Positions 20,458 to 40,343 of a DNA stretch of 64,000 nt are shown here, in pieces (positions within the stretch are counted from its first letter, which is position 1; each line of letters starts with the position of its first letter). The notes under the pieces were generated by a model. That model was given only the letters and a program-made list of their open reading frames with translations. It was not told the DNA's origin and did no database searches. The stretch is taken from positions 160,001 through 224,000 of the IMG/VR virus record IMGVR_UViG_3300037851_000141. One strand, written 5' to 3'. Both the position numbers and the translations under genes were made by a program. The stretch is from a virus. Its lineage: Duplodnaviria > Caudoviricetes.

Positions 20458-20586
20458 AAAGACTGAATGCCTGAAAGTTTACATTAGGATCTCTTGGTAG
20501 GTGGTTCAATTCCACCCAACCCGCCTCGCGTGGTTGTAGCTCACCGGCAGAGCAGGAGAGTTAACTTTCAACTTTTGTCAGTCTTT
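20458..20586 (+). ncRNA. YrlA-like Y RNA (circularly permuted tRNA mimic)
   Basis: Terminal stem AAAGACTGA/TCAGTCTTT; order T arm (GGTGG-TTCAATT-CCACC), looped acceptor (CAACC/GGTTG), D arm (GCTC-ACCGGCA-GAGC); Ro60 gene in window. Confidence 0.8.
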
Positions 20587-20590
20587 TTAT

Positions 20591-23006: not shown

Positions 23007-23123
23007 TACTCCTTAGTTCAATGGTAGAACATCGGCCTTGATCGCTATAGGAAGCAATGTAGTTCAAGTCTACAAGTGATCACCATGGAGCCGAGAATGC
23101 TGGTTCGAATCCAGCAGGAGTAA
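23007..23123 (+). tRNA. interrupted tRNA, best reconstructed as tRNA-Gln(TTG), with 46-nt mini-tRNA insert at 23040-23085
   Basis: TACTCCT/AGGAGTA, D arm GTTC/GAAC, TCGGC/GCCGA stem; CTT+TGGA after removal of insert. Confidence 0.75.
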
Positions 23124-28622: not shown

Positions 28623-28977
28623 GAGATACCCATTTCGTAGTCGTAGGTTGCGTAAGAAATATCGTCAAAAAGAATTTGCTGAATATGGATTTGAGGTATC
28701 TGGAAGTTATTTTGGTGAGTGTAAGTGTTTGTGGTTTGTTAGAGACGAAGTTTTTATAAATTTAGCTGAAATGATTGAAAAAGCCGGGTTTTATTTTGGT
28801 GGTGGATATAATGATAATACTTGGGGTTTTACGTTTGGTAAGTATCGTGGTTCCATTACTTTAGAAGATAAAAATAAGATACTCGAAGAGATTAAAAAGA
28901 TGGAAGGTGCTGGTCTAAAAATTGAAAAAGTTAGTGATTTGATTGACCTTTGGTACGAAAATCGGGATCCAAAATAG
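28612..28977 (+). CDS. yggL: YggL-like (DUF469) ribosome-associated protein
   Basis: RSRRLRKK..EFAEYGFEV and C-terminal LIDLWY. Confidence 0.75.
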   Translation: MKARRYPFRSRRLRKKYRQKEFAEYGFEVSGSYFGECKCLWFVRDEVFINLAEMIEKAGFYFGGGYNDNTWGFTFGKYRGSITLEDKNKILEEIKKMEGAGLKIEKVSDLIDLWYENRDPK

Positions 28978-28980
28978 TTC

Positions 28981-29008
28981 TTGACTTTGATTTTTTGTCG
29001 GCTATAAT
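28981..29008 (+). promoter_or_regulatory. sigma70-type promoter of Ro60 gene
   Basis: TTGACT-N16-TATAAT. Confidence 0.8.
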
Positions 29009-29063
29009 GTTCGTCGCAAAAGCCAATAAACCCTTGTCCCTCCAAGAAAGGAAGGAATGTATC

Positions 29064-30695
29064 ATGGCTAACAAGAATCTTTTCCAATCATCTGCTGGTA
29101 TGGCTCCAATCACTGACGCTCTTAATGAGGCTGGTGGTGTAGCTTATAACCTCTCTGATAAAGCGGCCCTTGCTCAGATGGTGGTTACTGGTTGCTTTAA
29201 TCAGACTTTTTATGCTGATGCCAAAACTCAGCTTGATACTGTGTTGAAGCTGGCAAACAAGGTTCCAACCAAGTTTGTCGCTCAACTGGCGGTATATGCT
29301 CGCACTAATGCTTATATGAAGGATTCTCCTGCGGTTCTTGCTGCTGTGCTGGCAAGTCGTGATATGGGAATGCTGAAGTCTATTTTTGCCACTGTAATTG
29401 ATAATGGCAAGATGGTTCGCAACTTCTGCCAAATCCTTCGTTCTGGTGTTGTTGGTCGCAAGTCATTTGGAACTGCTGCTAAGAAACTGGTTCAAAACTG
29501 GCTGATTAACCGTAAGCCAGAGCAGTTGTTCCGTGATATTGTCGGCAACGATCCTTCTCTGTCAGATGTTATTAAGATGACTCACCCTCATCCAAAGAAC
29601 AAGACTCAAGAGTTTATGTTTGCCTATATCTGTGGTCGAGTCAACATTGAAGTCAAGGGTAATACTTTGACTGCTACCAAGGTGTATAATGGCAAGACTC
29701 AAACCATCAAGTCTGAGAATATTCCAGATATTGTCAGAGATTTTGAGATTTTCAAGGCGAAGAAACTTGCTGGAAAGAGTGCTGGTGAGACTCCAGATGT
29801 GCCTTTCCAAATGTTGTCTTCATTGAATATGGGTACTGCTGAGTGGACTGAAATGGCTCGCAATGGGTCTTGGACGTTTACTCGCATGAATCTGAACAAT
29901 TTCTTGAAGTATGATGTGTTCAAGGATAAAAAGATGGTTGATATGATTGCTGATCGACTTTCTTCATCAACCGAAGTGAAGAAGTCCAGAGTATTCCCAT
30001 ATCAGCTACTTACTGCGTTCAAGTCAGTATCTTCAGAAATGCCAACCAAGATCACCAACGCACTTCAAGATGCTATGGAGATTGCTGTTGGGAACATTCC
30101 TGATCTTGACGGTAAGAAAATCTATGTTTGTGTTGATACCAGTGGAAGCATGCAGAGTGCTGTAACTGGTGATCGTGGCGGTGGTACTACTGCGACAACT
30201 TGTGTTGATGTAGCTGGACTTGTAGCCTCTGCGATTCTGCGTAAAAATCAAGATACCAGCGTAATTCCATTTGATACTGACGTTCACTTGGTTTCTCTTA
30301 ATTCACGGGATAGTGTCATGACCAACGCACAAAAGTTGGCTCTGCGTGGGGGTGGTACTGATTGTTCTTGTGCGCTTCGGTATCTTAACAACATTGAGGC
30401 TAAAGGGGATGTCGTTATCTTTGTCTCTGATAATGAGAGTTGGGCTGATCGTGGATATGGTCGTGGAACCGGAACGCACAACGAATTCCTGAAATTCCGT
30501 AAGCGTAATCCAAATGCGGTTCTGATCAATATCGACATTCAGCCAAACACTTATACTCAAACCAAGGAATCACCTTATATCTTCAATATTGGCGGATTCT
30601 CTGATCAAGTATTTGAGATTATCGCTGCCATTGCCAAAGATAGACTCAATAAGGATTGGTTCGTGACTGAGATTGAAAAAGTTAAGATTGGCTGA
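29064..30695 (+). CDS. rsr: Ro60/Rsr TROVE-domain RNA-binding protein with vWA domain
   Basis: NEAGGVAY..LAQ..TG..NQTFY TROVE start; VDTSGSM, GGTDCS, SDNESW, GGFSD; AAGGAAGGA RBS before 29064. Confidence 0.93.
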   Translation: MANKNLFQSSAGMAPITDALNEAGGVAYNLSDKAALAQMVVTGCFNQTFYADAKTQLDTVLKLANKVPTKFVAQLAVYARTNAYMKDSPAVLAAVLASRDMGMLKSIFATVIDNGKMVRNFCQILRSGVVGRKSFGTAAKKLVQNWLINRKPEQLFRDIVGNDPSLSDVIKMTHPHPKNKTQEFMFAYICGRVNIEVKGNTLTATKVYNGKTQTIKSENIPDIVRDFEIFKAKKLAGKSAGETPDVPFQMLSSLNMGTAEWTEMARNGSWTFTRMNLNNFLKYDVFKDKKMVDMIADRLSSSTEVKKSRVFPYQLLTAFKSVSSEMPTKITNALQDAMEIAVGNIPDLDGKKIYVCVDTSGSMQSAVTGDRGGGTTATTCVDVAGLVASAILRKNQDTSVIPFDTDVHLVSLNSRDSVMTNAQKLALRGGGTDCSCALRYLNNIEAKGDVVIFVSDNESWADRGYGRGTGTHNEFLKFRKRNPNAVLINIDIQPNTYTQTKESPYIFNIGGFSDQVFEIIAAIAKDRLNKDWFVTEIEKVKIG

Positions 30696-32638: not shown

Positions 32639-33979
32639 ATGCCCACTTTTTCGATAAAACACATTCTGGATGAAGCATTTGGTCGTACTGTTGATGACTT
32701 AAATGCTAAACTTGTTCAATTAGCTAAAACCTGGGGTGGTAAAGTATATATTGTTGGTGGTGCCGTTCGTGATGAATTGATGGGCATTAAACCTAAAGAT
32801 ATTGATTACCTTGTCACTAAAATTGAATCATCTGATCTTGCTAAAAAACTACAAAATATTCTTCCTGGTGCCAAGGTAAATGAAGTAGGTAAATCTTTTG
32901 GTATCATAAAACTTGTTGTTGGTGATGATGAATATGATTTTGCTATTCCAAGAGCCGATGTTGATAGAGATAATGTAAAAACTGATCCAAATATCCCGGT
33001 TGAACAAGATTTATTGAGAAGAGACATAACAATAAATTCTATGGCTAAGGATGTTGAAACTGGAGAAATAATATCTGCTTTTGGTGAAGATGGCGTTGCT
33101 GATGTTAAGAATAAGATAATAAAAGCAACAGGCGACCCAAAACAGAGATTTAAGGAAGATCCGTTAAGGATGTTAAGGTGTATACAATTTTCTGCTCGTT
33201 TTGGATTTGATATTGAACCAAACACATTTAAAGCAATTCAAGAACTTAAAGATGATTTCAATCAATTATCAGTAGAACGATTTAGAGACGAATTCTATAA
33301 AGGTTGGACTAAAGGTAATAAAGACACCACGAAATTCTTACAACTATTAGTGGATACTGGTGTAGGTAATCTCTTATTTGGTTCAGATTTTAAGCCTATT
33401 GCCATTGATATAAAGAATAAAGATCCAGAGTCAGCATTCAATGCGCAATATATAGCAATGTTCCTTAATGGCGGCGACCCAACCAGATTAAGCAACTTTA
33501 ACTATGATCATGATTTGATTTTTGTTGCTCGACTCTTAAAATCTTTTATTGATAATGGTATTGATTGGAATGAATTGAAAAAGTTATATAAACATGGAGA
33601 TTTATTCCCAATTATTGCTGAAGCTTTTTATCTTATTGATCCTAAATTGGGTGATAAACTAAAGAGTATGTTATCAAAACCTCTTATACAACGGTTAAAT
33701 AAATCTCGTTGGAATATATGGGAGTTGCCGATTCAAGGTGGAGAAATACTTGAAATAATGGGTGGTAAAATACAAAATAAATCAATACCAGTTGTTATAC
33801 AGAAACTCATAAAAGCCTATCAAAATGGAGAAATAGCAATAAATCCAGATAATGAAGATGAATCTAAAGAACTTGCTAAAAAATATATATCAACTGTACT
33901 GGTAAACGATAAAGATATAAAAGAATCAGATCGTCTTGGTATATTTGAATCAAGAATCTTCAACATTTTCAACCGATAA
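32639..33979 (+). CDS. cca: class II tRNA nucleotidyltransferase (CCA-adding enzyme)
   Basis: VGGAVRD, DIDY, RRDITINSMA, EDPLRMLR..F..RF, ER. Confidence 0.92.
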   Translation: MPTFSIKHILDEAFGRTVDDLNAKLVQLAKTWGGKVYIVGGAVRDELMGIKPKDIDYLVTKIESSDLAKKLQNILPGAKVNEVGKSFGIIKLVVGDDEYDFAIPRADVDRDNVKTDPNIPVEQDLLRRDITINSMAKDVETGEIISAFGEDGVADVKNKIIKATGDPKQRFKEDPLRMLRCIQFSARFGFDIEPNTFKAIQELKDDFNQLSVERFRDEFYKGWTKGNKDTTKFLQLLVDTGVGNLLFGSDFKPIAIDIKNKDPESAFNAQYIAMFLNGGDPTRLSNFNYDHDLIFVARLLKSFIDNGIDWNELKKLYKHGDLFPIIAEAFYLIDPKLGDKLKSMLSKPLIQRLNKSRWNIWELPIQGGEILEIMGGKIQNKSIPVVIQKLIKAYQNGEIAINPDNEDESKELAKKYISTVLVNDKDIKESDRLGIFESRIFNIFNR

Positions 33980-36930: not shown

Positions 36931-37722
36931 ATGGACATGCACTTTCAATCCGTAGTCGTAACTCTCGTTGGAGCCGACAATAAACCCTTTAGGGAATATG
37001 ATCCACACCAAGTAGAAAATGGCAGACGTTGTAATCTGATTATGCCATTTGATACTGAATATAAGGTTTTCGTTAAGAATCTCGCAGACCGTAGAATTAA
37101 ACTTGATATTGAAGTTGATGGAACTAATGTATCAGGTAAAGGTCTTATTATTGGTTCTAAAGAAAATGCCTATATTGAACGATTTGTTGATGCGGCTCGT
37201 AAATTCAAGTTTGTAAAGGCTCAAGGTGCTGGCGCAAACCCAAATGTAGCCGATCCAACAAGTCCTGAAAATGGTATAGTGAAAATCCGAGTAGCCAAAG
37301 AGAAACAAGCTACATTAAATTGGAATTATTATTACAATCAGCCTTCAATATGGACTTCCCCAATAAATCCATATCCACTAAATCCAGAAATTATTTGTTA
37401 TGGGTCACAGTCAAATCCGACAGGAACACCAATATCATGTTCATATAAAGGTGGTGCTGGAGATAATATAAAACGAGGGTTCAGCACCAAATCAATGAGT
37501 TTTAGTAGTTTGGCATCTGCTGAGACACAACCAAAGACTGATGTTGGTGCTACTGTAGAAGGTAATAATAGTGGTCAATCTTTCGGCACAACTTACTGGA
37601 ATGGTGATGACGGAGATTCAATGGTATTTACGTTTTATGTTCGTGGCGTCGAGAATGGAATAACACCAGAAGAACAACGTCAATATGAAGAATACCTGCG
37701 TCTCAAAGAAAAATTTGGTTGA
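36931..37722 (+). CDS. conserved hypothetical protein
   Basis: AAGGAAGGA RBS, long ORF. Confidence 0.75.
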   Translation: MDMHFQSVVVTLVGADNKPFREYDPHQVENGRRCNLIMPFDTEYKVFVKNLADRRIKLDIEVDGTNVSGKGLIIGSKENAYIERFVDAARKFKFVKAQGAGANPNVADPTSPENGIVKIRVAKEKQATLNWNYYYNQPSIWTSPINPYPLNPEIICYGSQSNPTGTPISCSYKGGAGDNIKRGFSTKSMSFSSLASAETQPKTDVGATVEGNNSGQSFGTTYWNGDDGDSMVFTFYVRGVENGITPEEQRQYEEYLRLKEKFG

Positions 37723-37746
37723 CAAATAGAAAAATGTTGGTAAAAT
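37719..37746 (+). promoter_or_regulatory. sigma70-type promoter of tRNA
   Basis: TTGACA-N16-TAAAAT followed by 11-bp leader hairpin AGGGGCGTATC/GGTACGCCTCT. Confidence 0.7.
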
Positions 37747-37790
37747 AGGGGCGTATCAGATATAAATCACTTGGTACGCCTCTTTTACAT

Positions 37791-37907
37791 GCTGGTTTAG
37801 CTCAGGGGTAGAGCAGTTGTTTTGCTGGAATATAGGAAAGCAAGACGGTTCGAGTCCGTCATTCTGGAATAAACAACAGGTCGGGGGTTCAAATCCCTCA
37901 ACCAGCA
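37791..37907 (+). tRNA. interrupted tRNA, best reconstructed as tRNA-Thr(TGT), with 45-nt mini-tRNA insert at 37825-37869
   Basis: GCTGGTT/AACCAGC, GCTC/GAGC D arm, GTTGT/ACAAC stem, AGGTC variable loop; TTTG+TAA after removal. Confidence 0.8.
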
Positions 37908-37921
37908 TTATAAATAATACT

Positions 37922-38260
37922 ATGAACATAAACCATATCTTTGACAACTTTATAGAAACTGGAAAAATGAGTGTTGATGATGCTAAATTGTTTCTTGACC
38001 AAATCTTAGAGTTCACCAAAGGTCAAGAATTTACAAGTGTCATTGATGTTTATTCTTTTTTAGTTGAACATGGTTTGGTTGAAGATAAACTAAAATTCCA
38101 TGAGCCAACTAAAAGAATGTATCTTGATTCGTCTAAAGCACATAAGGTAATAAGATTCTTTAAGTCATTGGATCTTATTGAATATACAGACGAAGATTTT
38201 GAGGACTTCAAGAAAAAAGTACTTGACTCTGAAACATCTCTTGGTAAAATACTACCATGA
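37922..38260 (+). CDS. hypothetical late protein
   Basis: TATAAATA 37909-16; ORF-track start 37817 overlaps tRNA and is rejected. Confidence 0.65.
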   Translation: MNINHIFDNFIETGKMSVDDAKLFLDQILEFTKGQEFTSVIDVYSFLVEHGLVEDKLKFHEPTKRMYLDSSKAHKVIRFFKSLDLIEYTDEDFEDFKKKVLDSETSLGKILP

Positions 38261-38351
38261 GACATAAACATGAGTCAAATCATCTTTTATCTATCTGAGT
38301 GCGGACCCTAAACAGGTCGTTGGCACACGAATTGACAAGTATATATCGTAC

Positions 38352-38426
38352 TGCGGGATGGTGTAACGGTTAGCATAGCGGCCTCATAAGCCGCAGATTT
38401 AGGTTCAAATCCTGATCCCGCCACCA
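38352..38426 (+). tRNA. tRNA-Met(CAT), initiator-like
   Basis: 1:72 T-C mismatch, GCGGC-CTCATAA-GCCGC, CCA. Confidence 0.85.
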
Positions 38427-38428
38427 AT

Positions 38429-38490
38429 AATCCGAATGCTGATAAGATTACATATCATTAAAAACCAATCTTATCAAATTTTGTCGGATT
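38429..38490 (+). ncRNA. short Y-RNA-like RNA 2
   Basis: AATCCGA/TCGGATT, ATGC/AATTTTG internal loop, TGATAAGATT/AATCTTATCA. Confidence 0.7.
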
Positions 38491-38503
38491 TTATTTCTGA
38501 GTT

Positions 38504-38575
38504 AATACCGAATGCTTGTTGAGAGTACATTTCCTTGTAAGAAACCAACCCCTCTCAACCACTTTTGTCGGTATT
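38504..38575 (+). ncRNA. short Y-RNA-like RNA 3
   Basis: AATACCGA/TCGGTATT, GTTGAGAG/CTCTCAAC, loop TACAT-TTC-CTTGTAA-GAA. Confidence 0.7.
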
Positions 38576-38583
38576 TTTCTTTA

Positions 38584-38693
38584 TGAGGGTTCGAATTCAA
38601 GTTGCTGGTGGAATTCCCACGACCTACCTACCAGTAGTAAAGAGCTTGATAGTAGAATAGCTAAGCGCGGCCAGTCGTGACCTCAAAACTGGC
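38584..38693 (+). ncRNA. unassigned structured, possibly pseudoknotted RNA
   Basis: TGAGG/CCTCA, TCAAG/CTTGA, 10-bp TTGCTGGTGG/CTACCAGTAG, GCCAGT/ACTGGC. Confidence 0.4.
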
Positions 38694-38698
38694 GTTAC

Positions 38699-38776
38699 GC
38701 TCTCATCGTCTAGCCCGGTTAGGACATTTGGTTTTCATCCAAAAAACGTGGAGTTCAAATCTCCCTGAGAGTACCA
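38699..38776 (+). tRNA. tRNA-Glu(TTC)
   Basis: GCTCTCA/TGAGAGT, TTTGG-TTTTCAT-CCAAA, CCA. Confidence 0.88.
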
Positions 38777-38778
38777 AT

Positions 38779-38841
38779 GAAGCGAATGCAGATAAGATTA
38801 CATTCTGGAAAAAATAAAATCTTATCAAATTTTGTCGCTTC
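38779..38841 (+). ncRNA. short Y-RNA-like RNA 4
   Basis: GAAGCGA/TCGCTTC, GATAAGATT/AATCTTATC, AATTTTGTC. Confidence 0.7.
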
Positions 38842-38847
38842 TTATAT

Positions 38848-38953
38848 GCTGCGTTGACAGATCGGTTATGTGCTAGCCTTCCCGAGAAAAGGAGCCTAAA
38901 GCTTTAATTCTCGACCAAAGCTAGAAAGGCGGGTTCGATTCCCGCACGCGGCT
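38848..38953 (+). tRNA. interrupted tRNA, best reconstructed as tRNA-Gly(TCC), with 35-nt minihelix-ACCA insert at 38883-38917
   Basis: GCTGCGT/ACGCGGC, U73, CTAGC/GCTAG stem; CTTCC+AA after removal. Confidence 0.75.
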
Positions 38954-39026
38954 TAGATAGTTTAGTGTGGTGTTTTTTGAGAAATAAGAACGATTGGCTG
39001 GTCGGAAGCTACCAAGAGTTAGTGAT

Positions 39027-40343
39027 TTAGTTATCAACTGTTATCACTTTGGTTGTTGGGTCAAGATGGACTCTAAGCTCATCTCCGTCCAGAGTATAGA
39101 AACCAGTTTCCTTCCAGTAGAAACCCTTCCTATTTAACTCTAACTTACGTAATTTGGGAGGTATGTCGGGTAAGGTCTGTTCGTGGTTGCACGACGCATT
39201 ATAGTCTGCGTCGTCAGAAAAGCCACAACCTCGACAGATGTAAATCTTACCCTTCCTATTACTCTTACGTACCAATCCGCAACAACTACACCGTTGACTT
39301 CTGTAAGTACAAGACTGTAAAGTGAAGTGGACCCCAGCCTCTTCACAGCGGCTACTTACTTTGTCTCTGATGAGTGTGTTTGTCCAGTGGGACATCTTAC
39401 GACTCGTTCTACGACCATAGTTTATGTTATTTATCTCTTCCAACTTTAGATGCTTGATGTTCATTAAGTTTAGTTGGTTGACTGACCAATTAATGAAGTT
39501 CTCACGGTGAGATTGGGCTTTAAGGAAGGCTCGACTTCCTTTACGTTTGGCACTCAATTTATCTATAATAGAATCTAATGAGTGTCCATGAGAGTCTGTC
39601 TTTGGTGTTGTTTGTCTGTCCGACAACGATATTATTGTCAATTTACCTTGGTCAGCACCAACATCAACACCTTTGGTCTTAGGTGGAACATCTTTTTCCC
39701 ACCGTAGATTTACGAAGTTGGTTCCGATGAGGAACGAGTTGAGCATCTTCCAATCAGCATATTTTGAGTTATGTTTGTGGAATCTTATAGGTAGTTTGAT
39801 ATGACCATATTCATCACCGATACATTTGAGTCTGAGGACTCCGTTGAAATATGATGTATTTTGGGTTGGTTCCCAATCTATACATTTGCTTGATAATTCT
39901 GGGTTGATATTACTAAGATCAGGCTTTAGAGCCTGGAATTTCTGTAGATTTTGATATAGTCTCTCATTATAAACTCCTTCATCACAGAGTTTATTGAATA
40001 CCCATAATCTTCGTCTACGGACTTCCGTAGTTGCTGATATACATCCAGCAACCTGAGTTACCAGAGAGGATAATGCTCGGGCTGATAGTGGAGTTTGAAT
40101 ACCAAACAATTTGTAATCTATGAAACTTGGAGTTTCAAGGTTATCATCTTTGATAGAGAACTGATGCTCTGTAGATACTCCAGTTTCTTTATTTGTAGTA
40201 GTCCACTTGTATCCATGTTCCCAAATAAGGTCAACTATGAGTTGCCCAACTCTACGATACTCGGCAATAAACTTGTTCAACTTGTCAAGTTTATTCTTAT
40301 TTGTATCTTTAAGAGAATGAGAAGTTGACCGTATAGTAGTCAT
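39027..40343 (-). CDS. tnpB: TnpB RNA-guided nuclease (438 aa)
   Basis: RuvC GADQG, LEEIN, DADYNAS; YRSQRCSCC..CRGC. Confidence 0.88.
   Translation of the reverse strand: MTTIRSTSHSLKDTNKNKLDKLNKFIAEYRRVGQLIVDLIWEHGYKWTTTNKETGVSTEHQFSIKDDNLETPSFIDYKLFGIQTPLSARALSSLVTQVAGCISATTEVRRRRLWVFNKLCDEGVYNERLYQNLQKFQALKPDLSNINPELSSKCIDWEPTQNTSYFNGVLRLKCIGDEYGHIKLPIRFHKHNSKYADWKMLNSFLIGTNFVNLRWEKDVPPKTKGVDVGADQGKLTIISLSDRQTTPKTDSHGHSLDSIIDKLSAKRKGSRAFLKAQSHRENFINWSVNQLNLMNIKHLKLEEINNINYGRRTSRKMSHWTNTLIRDKVSSRCEEAGVHFTLQSCTYRSQRCSCCGLVRKSNRKGKIYICRGCGFSDDADYNASCNHEQTLPDIPPKLRKLELNRKGFYWKETGFYTLDGDELRVHLDPTTKVITVDN

What the first reader, a model, noticed from the sequence alone, without database searches (positions are those of the whole stretch)
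38429..38841. Family of three short Y-like RNAs with a conserved Ro-binding scaffold and swapped loop payloads
Seen: 38429-38490, 38504-38575 and 38779-38841 share with the YrlA-like RNA the pattern stem-(C/T)GA ATGC-stem-TACAT-variable-stem'-(A/C)TTTTG TC-stem'. Terminal stems covary (AATCCGA/TCGGATT, AATACCGA/TCGGTATT, GAAGCGA/TCGCTTC). They lack the tRNA-like module, and two begin 2 nt after a tRNA CCA end, so they could be released by tRNA processing. The payload of RNA 3 is TTC-CTTGTAA-GAA, an anticodon stem-loop mimic of tRNA-Thr(TGT), one of the interrupted tRNAs; RNA 4 contains CTGGAAA (Ser-GGA-like loop). Inference: a modular Ro60-RNA system with several adaptors or decoys, for example baiting anticodon nucleases or recruiting different partners. 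The anticodon-mimic reading is weak for RNAs 2 and 4.
Basis: partly seen in the sequence, partly recalled or inferred. Interest (0 to 1): 0.8.

Follow-up and report, generated by a model that had tools for sequence, protein, structure and literature searches.

The report
Minimal Y RNAs in phage tRNA array
Three 62-72-base hairpin RNA genes between the tRNA genes of a 332-kb freshwater phage carry the same conserved 'handle' as the known Ro60-binding Y RNA YrlA but lack its tRNA-like body. They are new members of the known class of short Y RNAs, and the same family turns up by the hundred beside Ro60 genes in other phages and bacteria.

Summary
38429-38490, 38504-38575 and 38779-38841 (+) share CGAAUGC / UACAU / UUUUGUCG on two covarying stems. 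The YrlA-like RNA at 20460-20587 has the same handle, and the phage Ro60 gene lies at 28950-30695.

- **Copies in the genome.** A covariance model finds exactly these four copies in the 332-kb genome.
- **Family.** It finds 223 matches in 75 Ro60-bearing viral loci and 290 in 80 bacterial Ro60 loci, all on the Ro60 strand.
- **Controls.** No matches in 80 random viral loci; matches in one of 80 viral tRNA-array loci.
- **Structure.** Covariation is strong: 93% of cells paired, score 0.83 against 0.21 for shuffles.
- **tRNA context.** 46% of the best 150 phage copies lie within 10 nt of a tRNA, which fits release by tRNA processing.

They are best read as minimal Y RNAs of the YrlB/Yrn2 type that bind the phage Ro60. 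Neither expression nor binding is shown.

The 'swapped loop' picture holds. The specific anticodon-decoy idea does not: near relatives keep the handle but change the loop letters. RNA 3 does belong to a recurrent subtype with a CU-NNN-A(A/C) heptaloop on a short stem, commonest in bacterial copies.

This is a known kind. This scan has found phage Y-like RNAs beside Ro60-like genes before, on other DNA.

The parts
38429..38490 (+). Short Y-like RNA 2 (62 nt): stem 1 AAUCCGA/UCGGAUU, internal loop AUGC / AAUUUUG, stem 2 UGAUAAGAUU/AAUCUUAUCA, open 17-nt apical loop ACAUAUCAUUAAAAACC
   Evidence: Covariance-model scores 87.7 bits (R1) and 72.4 bits (R2). Starts 2 nt after the CCA of tRNA-Met.
38504..38575 (+). 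Short Y-like RNA 3 (72 nt): same handle; the apical part can form UUUC-CUUGUAA-GAAA followed by ACC
   Evidence: The model places it at 38505-38574, 68.8 bits (R1) and 62.4 bits (R2). It belongs to the heptaloop subtype. The double change 38523 G>A with 38554 C>U in a relative keeps a stem-2 pair.
38779..38841 (+). Short Y-like RNA 4 (63 nt): stem 1 GAAGCGA/UCGCUUC, stem 2 nearly identical to that of RNA 2, open 18-nt A-rich apical loop
   Evidence: Scores 80.8 bits (R1) and 71.7 bits (R2). It lies 2 nt after tRNA-Glu and 6 nt before tRNA-Gly. In relatives only loop letters change.
20460..20587 (+). YrlA-like Y RNA: same handle enclosing a permuted tRNA-like module (T arm, closed acceptor-like stem, D arm)
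   Evidence: Rfam RF02553 47.6 bits, E 1.5e-9, below the gathering score of 69. R2 41.7 bits, E 2e-8.
28950..30695 (+). Ro60 (Rsr) ortholog, the presumed protein partner
   Evidence: Pfam vWA_Ro60 8.8e-12 and TROVE 4.7e-10. More than 7000 homologues, several named 60 kDa SS-A/Ro ribonucleoprotein.
38352..38426 (+). tRNA-Met(CAU) with encoded CCA, directly upstream of RNA 2
   Evidence: ARAGORN; Rfam tRNA 57.8 bits.
38699..38776 (+). tRNA-Glu(UUC) with encoded CCA, directly upstream of RNA 4
   Evidence: ARAGORN; Rfam tRNA 52.6 bits.
38848..38953 (+). Interrupted tRNA directly downstream of RNA 4. RNase P cleavage at its 5' end would define the 3' end of RNA 4.
   Evidence: ARAGORN with introns; cloverleaf in the fold; earlier finding e1-5369794.
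37719..37746 (+). Promoter-like site TTGACA-16-TAAAAT (11 of 12, with TG), upstream of the tRNA / Y RNA cluster
   Evidence: This is a consensus match only.
38223..38250 (+). Second promoter-like site TTGACT-16-TAAAAT (10 of 12), upstream of tRNA-Met
   Evidence: This is a consensus match only.

Best explanation
The three elements are genes for minimal Y RNAs, the short hairpin class exemplified by YrlB and Yrn2.

They are most likely transcribed with the neighbouring tRNAs as one precursor. Ordinary tRNA-end processing would free them: RNase P at the 5' end of the downstream tRNA, and 3'-end processing of the upstream tRNA.

Each RNA closes its ends into a 7-8-bp stem. That stem, the adjoining internal loop (5' AUGC, 3' UUUUG) and the next helix ending in U-ACAU form the same handle as in YrlA. 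The handle is the presumed docking site for the phage's Ro60 ring.

The apical part is free to vary. The phage would therefore load its Ro60 with four RNAs, one tRNA-like and three minimal. These either gate the Ro60 cavity or tether it to different partners, such as a host exoribonuclease.

What is shown: sequence, structure, covariation, the genomic link to Ro60 and the adjacency to tRNAs. What is inferred: expression, processing, Ro60 binding and partner choice.
For: 1. Only four copies of the handle exist in the 332-kb genome. All lie within 8.5 kb of Ro60 and on its strand.
2. The model built from the three copies alone found about 100 matches at E<0.01 in 82 Ro60-bearing viral loci. Of 135 matches at E<10, 133 were on the Ro60 strand. 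It found none in 80 unrelated viral loci of 645 kb.
3. The widened model found 223 matches in viral and 290 in bacterial Ro60 loci, all on the + strand. In 80 viral tRNA-array loci it matched only one contig.
4. Covariation on 90 members: 93% of cells paired against 62% for shuffles. There were 436 double changes against 119. The score was 0.833 against 0.213 for shuffles and 0.05-0.08 for slid partners. Fifteen of 16 pairs have double changes.
5. The same model hits RNAs that pass Rfam's YrlA gathering score, for example L324 2637-2752 at 81.4 bits and L351 4699-4815 at 75.9 bits. The handle is therefore YrlA's own.
6. The family consensus g-N-C-G-A-A-U-G fits the published Ro60-site motif GNCGAAN0-1G (PMC4201824).
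7. 69 of the best 150 phage copies lie within 10 nt of a tRNA, 21 of them on both sides. Co-transcription of Yrn2 with tRNA-Asp and Yrn1 is published (PMC4201824).
8. Near relatives keep the handle through compensatory changes.
9. A phage Ro60 binding short phage-encoded hairpins with a CGAA motif has been shown for Thermus phage phiLo (PMC12135203).
Against: - There is no expression, end-mapping or binding evidence for these RNAs.
- They lie 7.7-8.1 kb from Ro60, beyond the 4 kb used as a criterion by Chen et al. 2014.
- The first G of GNCGAANG is U, A and A in the three copies.
- Rfam's YrlA model does not score them at all.
- Cultured phages with Ro60 gave no match within the 6-10 kb flanks searched on each side: Myxococcus phage Mx1 (47.6% identical Ro60), a mycobacteriophage, a Streptomyces phage and a Vibrio phage. 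The handle is therefore clade-specific, not universal.
- One viral contig with two copies shows no Ro60, though it is only 19% complete.
Confidence: 0.75

Rival explanations
1. The elements are Ro60 landing sites that act in cis within the tRNA precursor. They would recruit Ro60, and through it an exonuclease, for trimming or quality control of the neighbouring tRNAs. They would not accumulate as free RNAs.
For: Spacing of 0-10 nt to tRNAs is common in phages. The locus is rich in tRNA-related genes, including a CCA-adding enzyme, IF3 and interrupted tRNAs.
Against: In bacterial Ro60 loci only 18 of the best 150 copies abut a tRNA, yet the handle is the same. Published Y RNAs of this build accumulate as Ro60-bound small RNAs (PMC4201824). 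Closed terminal stems are typical of stable RNAs.
Confidence: 0.1
2. The apical loops are anticodon stem-loop mimics that bait anticodon nucleases or recruit anticodon-binding factors, with RNA 3 mimicking tRNA-Thr(UGU).
For: RNA 3's loop CUUGUAA matches 6 of 7 letters of the restored loop UUUGUAA of the phage's interrupted tRNA at 37791-37907 (e1-5369793). Across the family a CU-NNN-A(A/C) heptaloop on a stem of 4 bp or more recurs. Among distinct apical regions that contain this heptamer, 20 of 33 bacterial and 7 of 23 phage regions have such a stem, against 0-1 when the 3' flank is slid. Heptaloops are the commonest terminal loop in bacterial copies, 29 of 56. A nuclease-inhibitor role has been floated for YrlA (PMC7790460).
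Against: The closest relative changes RNA 3's loop to a 6-nt AUUUAA. RNA 4's C and U are replaced in relatives. RNA 2 and RNA 4 have open loops. RNA 3's stem (UUUC/GAAA) does not resemble that tRNA's anticodon stem (GUUGU/ACAAC). The central triplet takes at least 11 values with no visible bias. RNA 3's hairpin is not its minimum-energy fold.
Confidence: 0.1
3. They are decayed YrlA copies that lost the tRNA-like module and no longer function.
For: The handle is shared with YrlA. RNA 2 and RNA 4 look like a recent duplication, with near-identical stem 2.
Against: Short forms are the majority, 95 of the best 150 phage matches. They keep both stems through compensatory change. They sit at conserved places such as tRNA-Asp-Y-tRNA-Ile(UAU) in four contigs, and they also occur in bacteria.
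Confidence: 0.03
4. They are plain transcription terminators or RNase processing hairpins unrelated to Ro60.
For: T-rich runs follow RNA 2 and RNA 3.
Against: The terminator scan finds none on the + strand. Conserved unpaired letters (AUGC, UACAU, U..U.G at 96-100%) and the exclusive link to Ro60 loci are not expected of terminators.
Confidence: 0.02

Closest known systems
YrlB (Salmonella Typhimurium, Mycobacterium smegmatis) and Yrn2 (Deinococcus radiodurans): the second, short Y RNAs bound by bacterial Ro60 (Chen et al. 2014, PMC4201824)
   Same: They have a terminal stem with the Ro60-site motif and no full tRNA-like domain. They are long hairpins with a small loop, encoded beside Ro60 and a tRNA-like Y RNA. 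Yrn2 is made from one precursor with a tRNA.
   Different: I could not compare sequences with YrlB or Yrn2. RNA 2 and RNA 4 have open 17-18-nt A-rich loops rather than a small pyrimidine-rich loop. The three RNAs lie in a phage tRNA cluster 7.7-8.1 kb from Ro60, two of them 2 nt after a tRNA.
YrlA (Rfam RF02553)
   Same: The handle is identical (CGAAUGC, stem 2, UAC, UUGUCG). My handle model hits RNAs that pass Rfam's YrlA threshold.
   Different: The T arm, acceptor-like stem and D arm that define YrlA are absent. Rfam's model gives no match at E up to 10.
Yrl1 and Yrl2 of Thermus phage phiLo with its Ro60 (NAR 2025, PMC12135203)
   Same: Phage-encoded short hairpin RNAs with a CGAA motif near a phage Ro60 gene. 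Binding to the phage Ro60 and a ternary complex with host PNPase were shown in vitro.
   Different: That paper identified them by eye upstream of the gene. It describes no family model, no tRNA-array context and no multi-copy sets. I did not test sequence relatedness to the present family.
Metazoan Y RNAs (Rfam RF00019)
   Same: Modular build: a terminal stem binds Ro60 and a variable loop binds other factors. Several paralogues occur per genome.
   Different: The metazoan motif is a bulged helix (GGUCCGA / UUGACU). They are pol III transcripts ending in a U tail. There is no detectable sequence homology.

Membership tests
Y RNA (Ro60-associated noncoding RNA, bacterial/phage type) | Encoded near a Ro60 ortholog and on the same strand | tested here: met
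   Ro60 is at 28950-30695 (+). The RNAs lie 7.7-8.1 kb downstream on the + strand. That is further than the 4 kb used by Chen et al. 2014. All 223 viral and 290 bacterial matches are on the Ro60 strand.
Y RNA (Ro60-associated noncoding RNA, bacterial/phage type) | 5' and 3' ends pair into a stem carrying the Ro60-site motif GNCGAAN0-1G | tested here: met
   The three copies read UCCGAAUG, ACCGAAUG and AGCGAAUG, 7 of 8 positions each. The family consensus is g-N-C-G-A-A-U-G.
Y RNA (Ro60-associated noncoding RNA, bacterial/phage type) | Physically bound by Ro60; accumulation depends on Ro60 | not testable with these tools
   Needs EMSA, RIP or a Northern blot. The complex predictor takes proteins only.
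Y RNA (Ro60-associated noncoding RNA, bacterial/phage type) | Accumulates as a discrete small RNA | not testable with these tools
   No RNA holder was listed for this stretch.
YrlA (RF02553) | Permuted tRNA-like domain (T arm, acceptor-like stem-loop, D arm) | tested here: not met
   The apical parts are 17-24 nt with no T or D arm. The feature is met only by 20460-20587.
YrlA (RF02553) | Reaches Rfam's gathering score (69 bits) | tested here: not met
   The three short RNAs give no YrlA match at E up to 10. The long copy scores 47.6 bits.
YrlB / Yrn2-type short Y RNA | Ro60-site stem without a full tRNA-like domain; long hairpin with a small terminal loop | tested here: inconclusive
   RNA 3 can form a 4-bp stem with a 7-nt loop. 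RNA 2 and RNA 4 fold with open 17-18-nt loops. No YrlB or Yrn2 sequence was at hand for comparison.
Anticodon stem-loop mimic | Stem of about 5 bp closing a 7-nt loop with pyrimidine-32, U33 and purine-37, kept by selection | tested here: inconclusive
   RNA 3 has 4 bp plus CUUGUAA, so the letters fit, and the subtype recurs in the family. The nearest relative has AUUUAA instead. RNA 2 does not fit. RNA 4 has three A-U pairs only, and its C and U vary in relatives.
Intrinsic terminator | G+C-rich hairpin with a 3-8-nt loop followed by a U run | tested here: not met
   No + strand site in 37600-39100.

The most novel reading that the evidence does not exclude
A large subset of minimal Y RNAs carries a true anticodon-arm mimic at the tip. 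This includes RNA 3, about a twelfth of the phage copies and about a third of the bacterial copies. The module is a 4-5-bp stem closing a CU-NNN-A(A/C) heptaloop whose central triplet is hypervariable.

YrlA copies the elbow and acceptor end of tRNA. Ro60's RNA partners would then present every face of a tRNA between them. The heptaloop forms could bait or recruit enzymes that read anticodon loops, such as anticodon nucleases, loop-modifying enzymes or repair ligases. This fits the link between Ro60 operons and anticodon-loop cleavage (PMC7790460).
Probability: 0.2. Interest if true: 0.7.

Novelty: new member of a known kind. Interest (0 to 1): 0.45.

Why it matters
Ro60 and its Y RNAs are conserved from bacteria to humans, and their bacterial and phage roles are still poorly understood. 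Published searches relied on the tRNA-like domain and so missed short partners. The authors themselves noted that such RNAs 'eluded bioinformatic discovery'.

A handle-only model recovers hundreds of unannotated short Y RNAs beside Ro60 genes, several per genome. In phages, many lie directly against tRNA genes. This gives three things:
- a concrete annotation tool;
- a set of natural 'same handle, different tip' variants for testing how Y RNAs direct Ro60;
- a testable route of biogenesis, by tRNA-end processing.

For this phage it points to a Ro60 particle with four alternative RNAs. They sit in a translation and RNA-maintenance module with tRNAs, a CCA-adding enzyme and IF3.

Tried and rejected
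- **Loose DNA pattern in IMG/VR.** It gave 118 stretches, none of which scored with the covariance model. I kept them only as a negative control.
- **Ro60 as a single-protein query in IMG/VR.** It found nothing. An alignment of homologues was needed.
- **Closest Ro60 homologues.** The contigs of P0003 (66% identical) and P0010 could not be fetched.
- **Expression.** No RNA holder was listed for the stretch.
- **L237, the only tRNA-array control locus with matches.** Neither TROVE nor my Ro60 profile found a Ro60 in its 94-kb contig, which is 19% complete. This says nothing either way.
- **Cultured phages.** Myxococcus phage Mx1, Mycobacterium phage Catera, Streptomyces phage Jollison and Vibrio phage VB_VaC_TDDLMA gave no credible match, even with filters off for Mx1. 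The model is specific to the Ro60 clade of this phage, so no cultured host-phage pair was identified.
- **Spacers.** 38576-38698 and 38261-38351 do not fold better than shuffles.
- **Literature.** Two reviews (PMC10870794, PMC6047535) are not held.
- **Contigs laid from other metagenomes.** One relative (X2) shows the 5' strand of RNA 3's stem 1 changed without the matching 3' change. I cannot tell a decayed copy from a chimeric contig, so I left this out of the argument.

Full report
**Where the window lies.** The window is bases 160001-224000 of a 331,849-base IMG/VR virus record that CheckV rates 92% complete. A freshwater metagenome run holds the whole stretch searched (window 38300-38900) and may be its source. 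The window holds 20 tRNA genes, or 22 counting interrupted ones. It also holds a Ro60 ortholog at 28950-30695 (+), with Pfam vWA_Ro60 at 8.8e-12 and TROVE at 4.7e-10. Nearby are a CCA-adding / poly(A) polymerase family enzyme (32639-33979), a radical SAM protein and IF3.

**The observation.** GAATGC-N20-50-TTTTGTC matches only these three places in 64 kb, against 0.11 expected. Each folds as stem 1, an asymmetric internal loop (5' AUGC, 3' A/C-UUUUG), stem 2 and an apical region, with z-scores of -3.9 to -4.2. Both stems covary among the copies.

RNA 2 and RNA 4 begin 2 nt after the encoded CCA of tRNA-Met and tRNA-Glu. RNA 4 ends 6 nt before the next tRNA. Rfam's YrlA model aligns it end to end at 47.6 bits (E 1.5e-9), below the gathering score of 69. 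The alignment shows the same CGAAUGC...UAC...UUGUC handle around a T arm, a closed acceptor-like stem and a D arm. Rfam has nothing for the three short elements at E up to 10.

**Is it a family, and does it go with Ro60?** A covariance model built from the three copies alone (R1) finds only those three in the whole genome. I fetched 80 viral loci around Ro60 homologues, at 36-51% identity, plus two contigs of closer homologues.
- R1 gave 135 matches there at E<10, 133 of them on the Ro60 strand, about 100 at E<0.01 and often several per locus.
- It gave none in 80 unrelated viral loci of 645 kb.

A second model from 90 matches (R2) behaves as follows.
- It finds exactly four places in the window with filters off, and the same four in the whole genome. 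They are the three short RNAs and the YrlA-like RNA.
- It finds 223 matches at E<=0.001 in 75 sources (74 viral Ro60 loci plus the window), all on the + strand.
- As a matched control I took 80 viral loci chosen for tandem tRNA genes, 694 kb in all. R2 matched in one only, a 94-kb contig rated 19% complete in which I found no Ro60.

**Structure.** On the 90-member alignment, 93% of cells form standard pairs against 62% for shuffles. There are 436 cells with changes on both sides against 119. The covariation score is 0.833, against 0.213 for shuffles and 0.05-0.08 when partners are slid. Fifteen of 16 pairs show double changes. The alignment was fitted to the model, which favours the structure. 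The size of the effect and the slid controls still leave little doubt.

The unpaired letters are the most conserved: A-U-G-C at 96-100%, U-ACAU at 97-100%, and U..U.G on the 3' side at 96-97%. The consensus g-N-C-G-A-A-U-G is the published Ro60-site motif GNCGAAN0-1G (PMC4201824). UACAU is kept even in copies with no tRNA-like body, so it seems to belong to the handle rather than to the tRNA mimic. That last point is my inference.

**Link to bona fide YrlA and to bacteria.** In 80 bacterial Ro60 loci (Acidobacteriota, Verrucomicrobiota, Myxococcota, Planctomycetota and others), R2 finds 290 matches, all on the Ro60 strand. Of the best 150, 63 are 85 nt or shorter. In a sample of 13 of these loci, Rfam's YrlA model passes its own threshold at seven places (69.1-81.4 bits). 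Each of the seven is also an R2 match. The short R2 matches beside them are invisible to Rfam. The handle is thus YrlA's handle, and short handle-only RNAs are a general companion of Ro60 genes, not a peculiarity of this phage.

The model did not reach Ro60 loci of actinobacteriophages or a Vibrio phage, whose Ro60 is only about 22-25% identical. It also did not reach Myxococcus phage Mx1, at 47.6%. The handle is therefore clade-specific.

**Biogenesis.** Of the best 150 phage matches, 69 lie within 10 nt of a tRNA gene on the same strand, 21 of them on both sides. In bacterial loci the figure is 18 of 150. Some positions recur: tRNA-Asp-Y-tRNA-Ile(UAU) in four contigs, and Y-tRNA-Tyr in about ten.

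A strong promoter-like site lies upstream of the cluster (37719-37746), with a second at 38223-38250. No terminator-like site lies on the + strand. Co-transcription of a short Y RNA with a tRNA and another Y RNA is published for D. radiodurans Yrn2 (PMC4201824). Release by RNase P and tRNA 3'-end processing is therefore the likely route. It is inferred, not shown.

**Apical parts.** They vary freely. Among 72 short members found with R1 they are 10-34 nt long, mostly A-rich and unstructured. The family also holds intermediate forms with a T-arm-like hairpin and full tRNA-like forms. RNA 2 and RNA 4 are of the open-loop kind.

RNA 3 is of a recurrent subtype: ACAU, a 4-5-bp stem, a 7-nt loop, then often AACC.
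- In bacterial short copies the minimum-energy terminal loop has 7 nt in 29 of 56. Fifteen of 21 distinct heptaloops begin with CU, and 12 of 21 fit CU...A..
- Of 33 bacterial apical regions with CU-NNN-A(A/C), 20 have flanks of 4 bp or more, against 0-1 when the 3' flank is slid. These have ten different stems and eleven different central triplets.
- In phages the subtype is rarer, 7 of 94 distinct regions, again 0 when slid.

The specific reading does not hold, however. RNA 3's loop shares 6 of 7 letters with the restored loop UUUGUAA of the interrupted tRNA at 37791-37907. I checked that by reading the sequence, and the cut is taken from e1-5369793. Its stem is unrelated to that tRNA's. Its minimum-energy fold is another hairpin. 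A near relative from a groundwater metagenome has 38534 C>A and 38537 deleted, giving AUUUAA. In RNA 4 the letters C38805 and U38806 of 'CUGGAAA' are replaced in two other relatives, and one relative has a 4-nt deletion in the loop.

In the same contigs the handle is untouched or changed in a compensatory way. 38523 G>A goes with 38554 C>U. The loose ends of two contigs give an RNA 3 counterpart with stem 1 CUUGUGA/UCACAAG and stem 2 GUUGAAAG/CUUUCAAC.

**What is known.** Chen et al. [quoted passage not shown] They suggested that the additional Y RNAs let Ro60 form particles with more partners. They reported YrlA in 22 phages and expected more Y RNAs that their model missed (PMC4201824). A phage Ro60 that binds two short phage-encoded hairpins with a CGAA motif, and joins host PNPase, was described in 2025 (PMC12135203). 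A nuclease-inhibitor role has been proposed for YrlA (PMC7790460). I found no paper describing the handle-only family, its numbers or its place in phage tRNA arrays. The library is incomplete, though. This scan has repeatedly noted phage Y-like RNAs beside Ro60-like genes on other DNA.

**Verdict.** The feature is real, well supported and correctly placed. It is a new member of a known kind: minimal Y RNAs of a phage Ro60 particle, very probably freed from a tRNA precursor. The modular 'same handle, different tip' picture is right and matches published thinking. The anticodon-decoy idea is unsupported for these three RNAs. It survives only as a family-level lead, the heptaloop subtype.

Noticed in passing
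window 39027-40343 (-): A 438-aa ORF with a Cas12f1-like TNB domain (TnpB-like, 3.5e-11) lies on the opposite strand directly after the interrupted tRNA. In one metagenome relative (X5) the sequence jumps from 38957 to about 39018, so roughly 60 nt at the ORF's 3' side are variable.
   Followed up: no
window 23007-23123, 37791-37907, 38848-38953: Three tRNAs carry 35-46-nt inserts in the anticodon loop that fold like the top half of a tRNA. Two share TATAGGAA(A)GCAA before a T-arm-like hairpin. Other findings of this scan already cover them.
   Followed up: partly
window 38576-38698: The 123-nt spacer between RNA 3 and tRNA-Glu does not fold better than shuffles. It seems absent in one relative (X6), where the RNA 3 counterpart appears to run straight into tRNA-Glu.
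   Followed up: partly
L370, L402, L359, L398, L333, L335, L351 (contigs of bacterial MAGs, mostly Pyrinomonadaceae): In these contigs the Ro60 gene sits beside arrays of about 10-25 tRNA genes and 5-10 Y-like RNAs. They may be phage or prophage DNA binned into bacterial genomes, or tRNA-array islands.
   Followed up: no
viral loci, e.g. L194:19487-19697, L139:18618-18861, L190:19287-19563: Some handle matches span 200-277 nt, so the two handle strands enclose much larger inserts than a YrlA tRNA-like module. I did not examine what is inside.
   Followed up: no
L237:1138-1216 and 1789-1920 (IMGVR_UViG_3300020508_000005): Two good handle matches (42.8 and 46.6 bits) lie in a tRNA-array contig in which no Ro60 was found. 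The contig is rated 19% complete.
   Followed up: partly
family alignment A5, columns 31-36: U-ACAU after stem 2 is 97-100% conserved in short and long forms alike. In many bacterial copies ACAU pairs with AUGU to close the heptaloop.
   Followed up: partly
bacterial short copies (A7): 14 of 21 distinct heptaloops have A at position 5 and 16 of 21 have A at position 6; loops such as CUUGAAA and CUGUAAA carry a run of three A. From my own knowledge, such a run is what the tRNA isopentenyltransferase MiaA recognises in real tRNAs.
   Followed up: no
L337:8534-8647 (-): Two Acido-Lenti-1 RNA matches (47-51 bits, above the gathering score) lie about 2 kb from a bacterial Ro60 gene.
   Followed up: no
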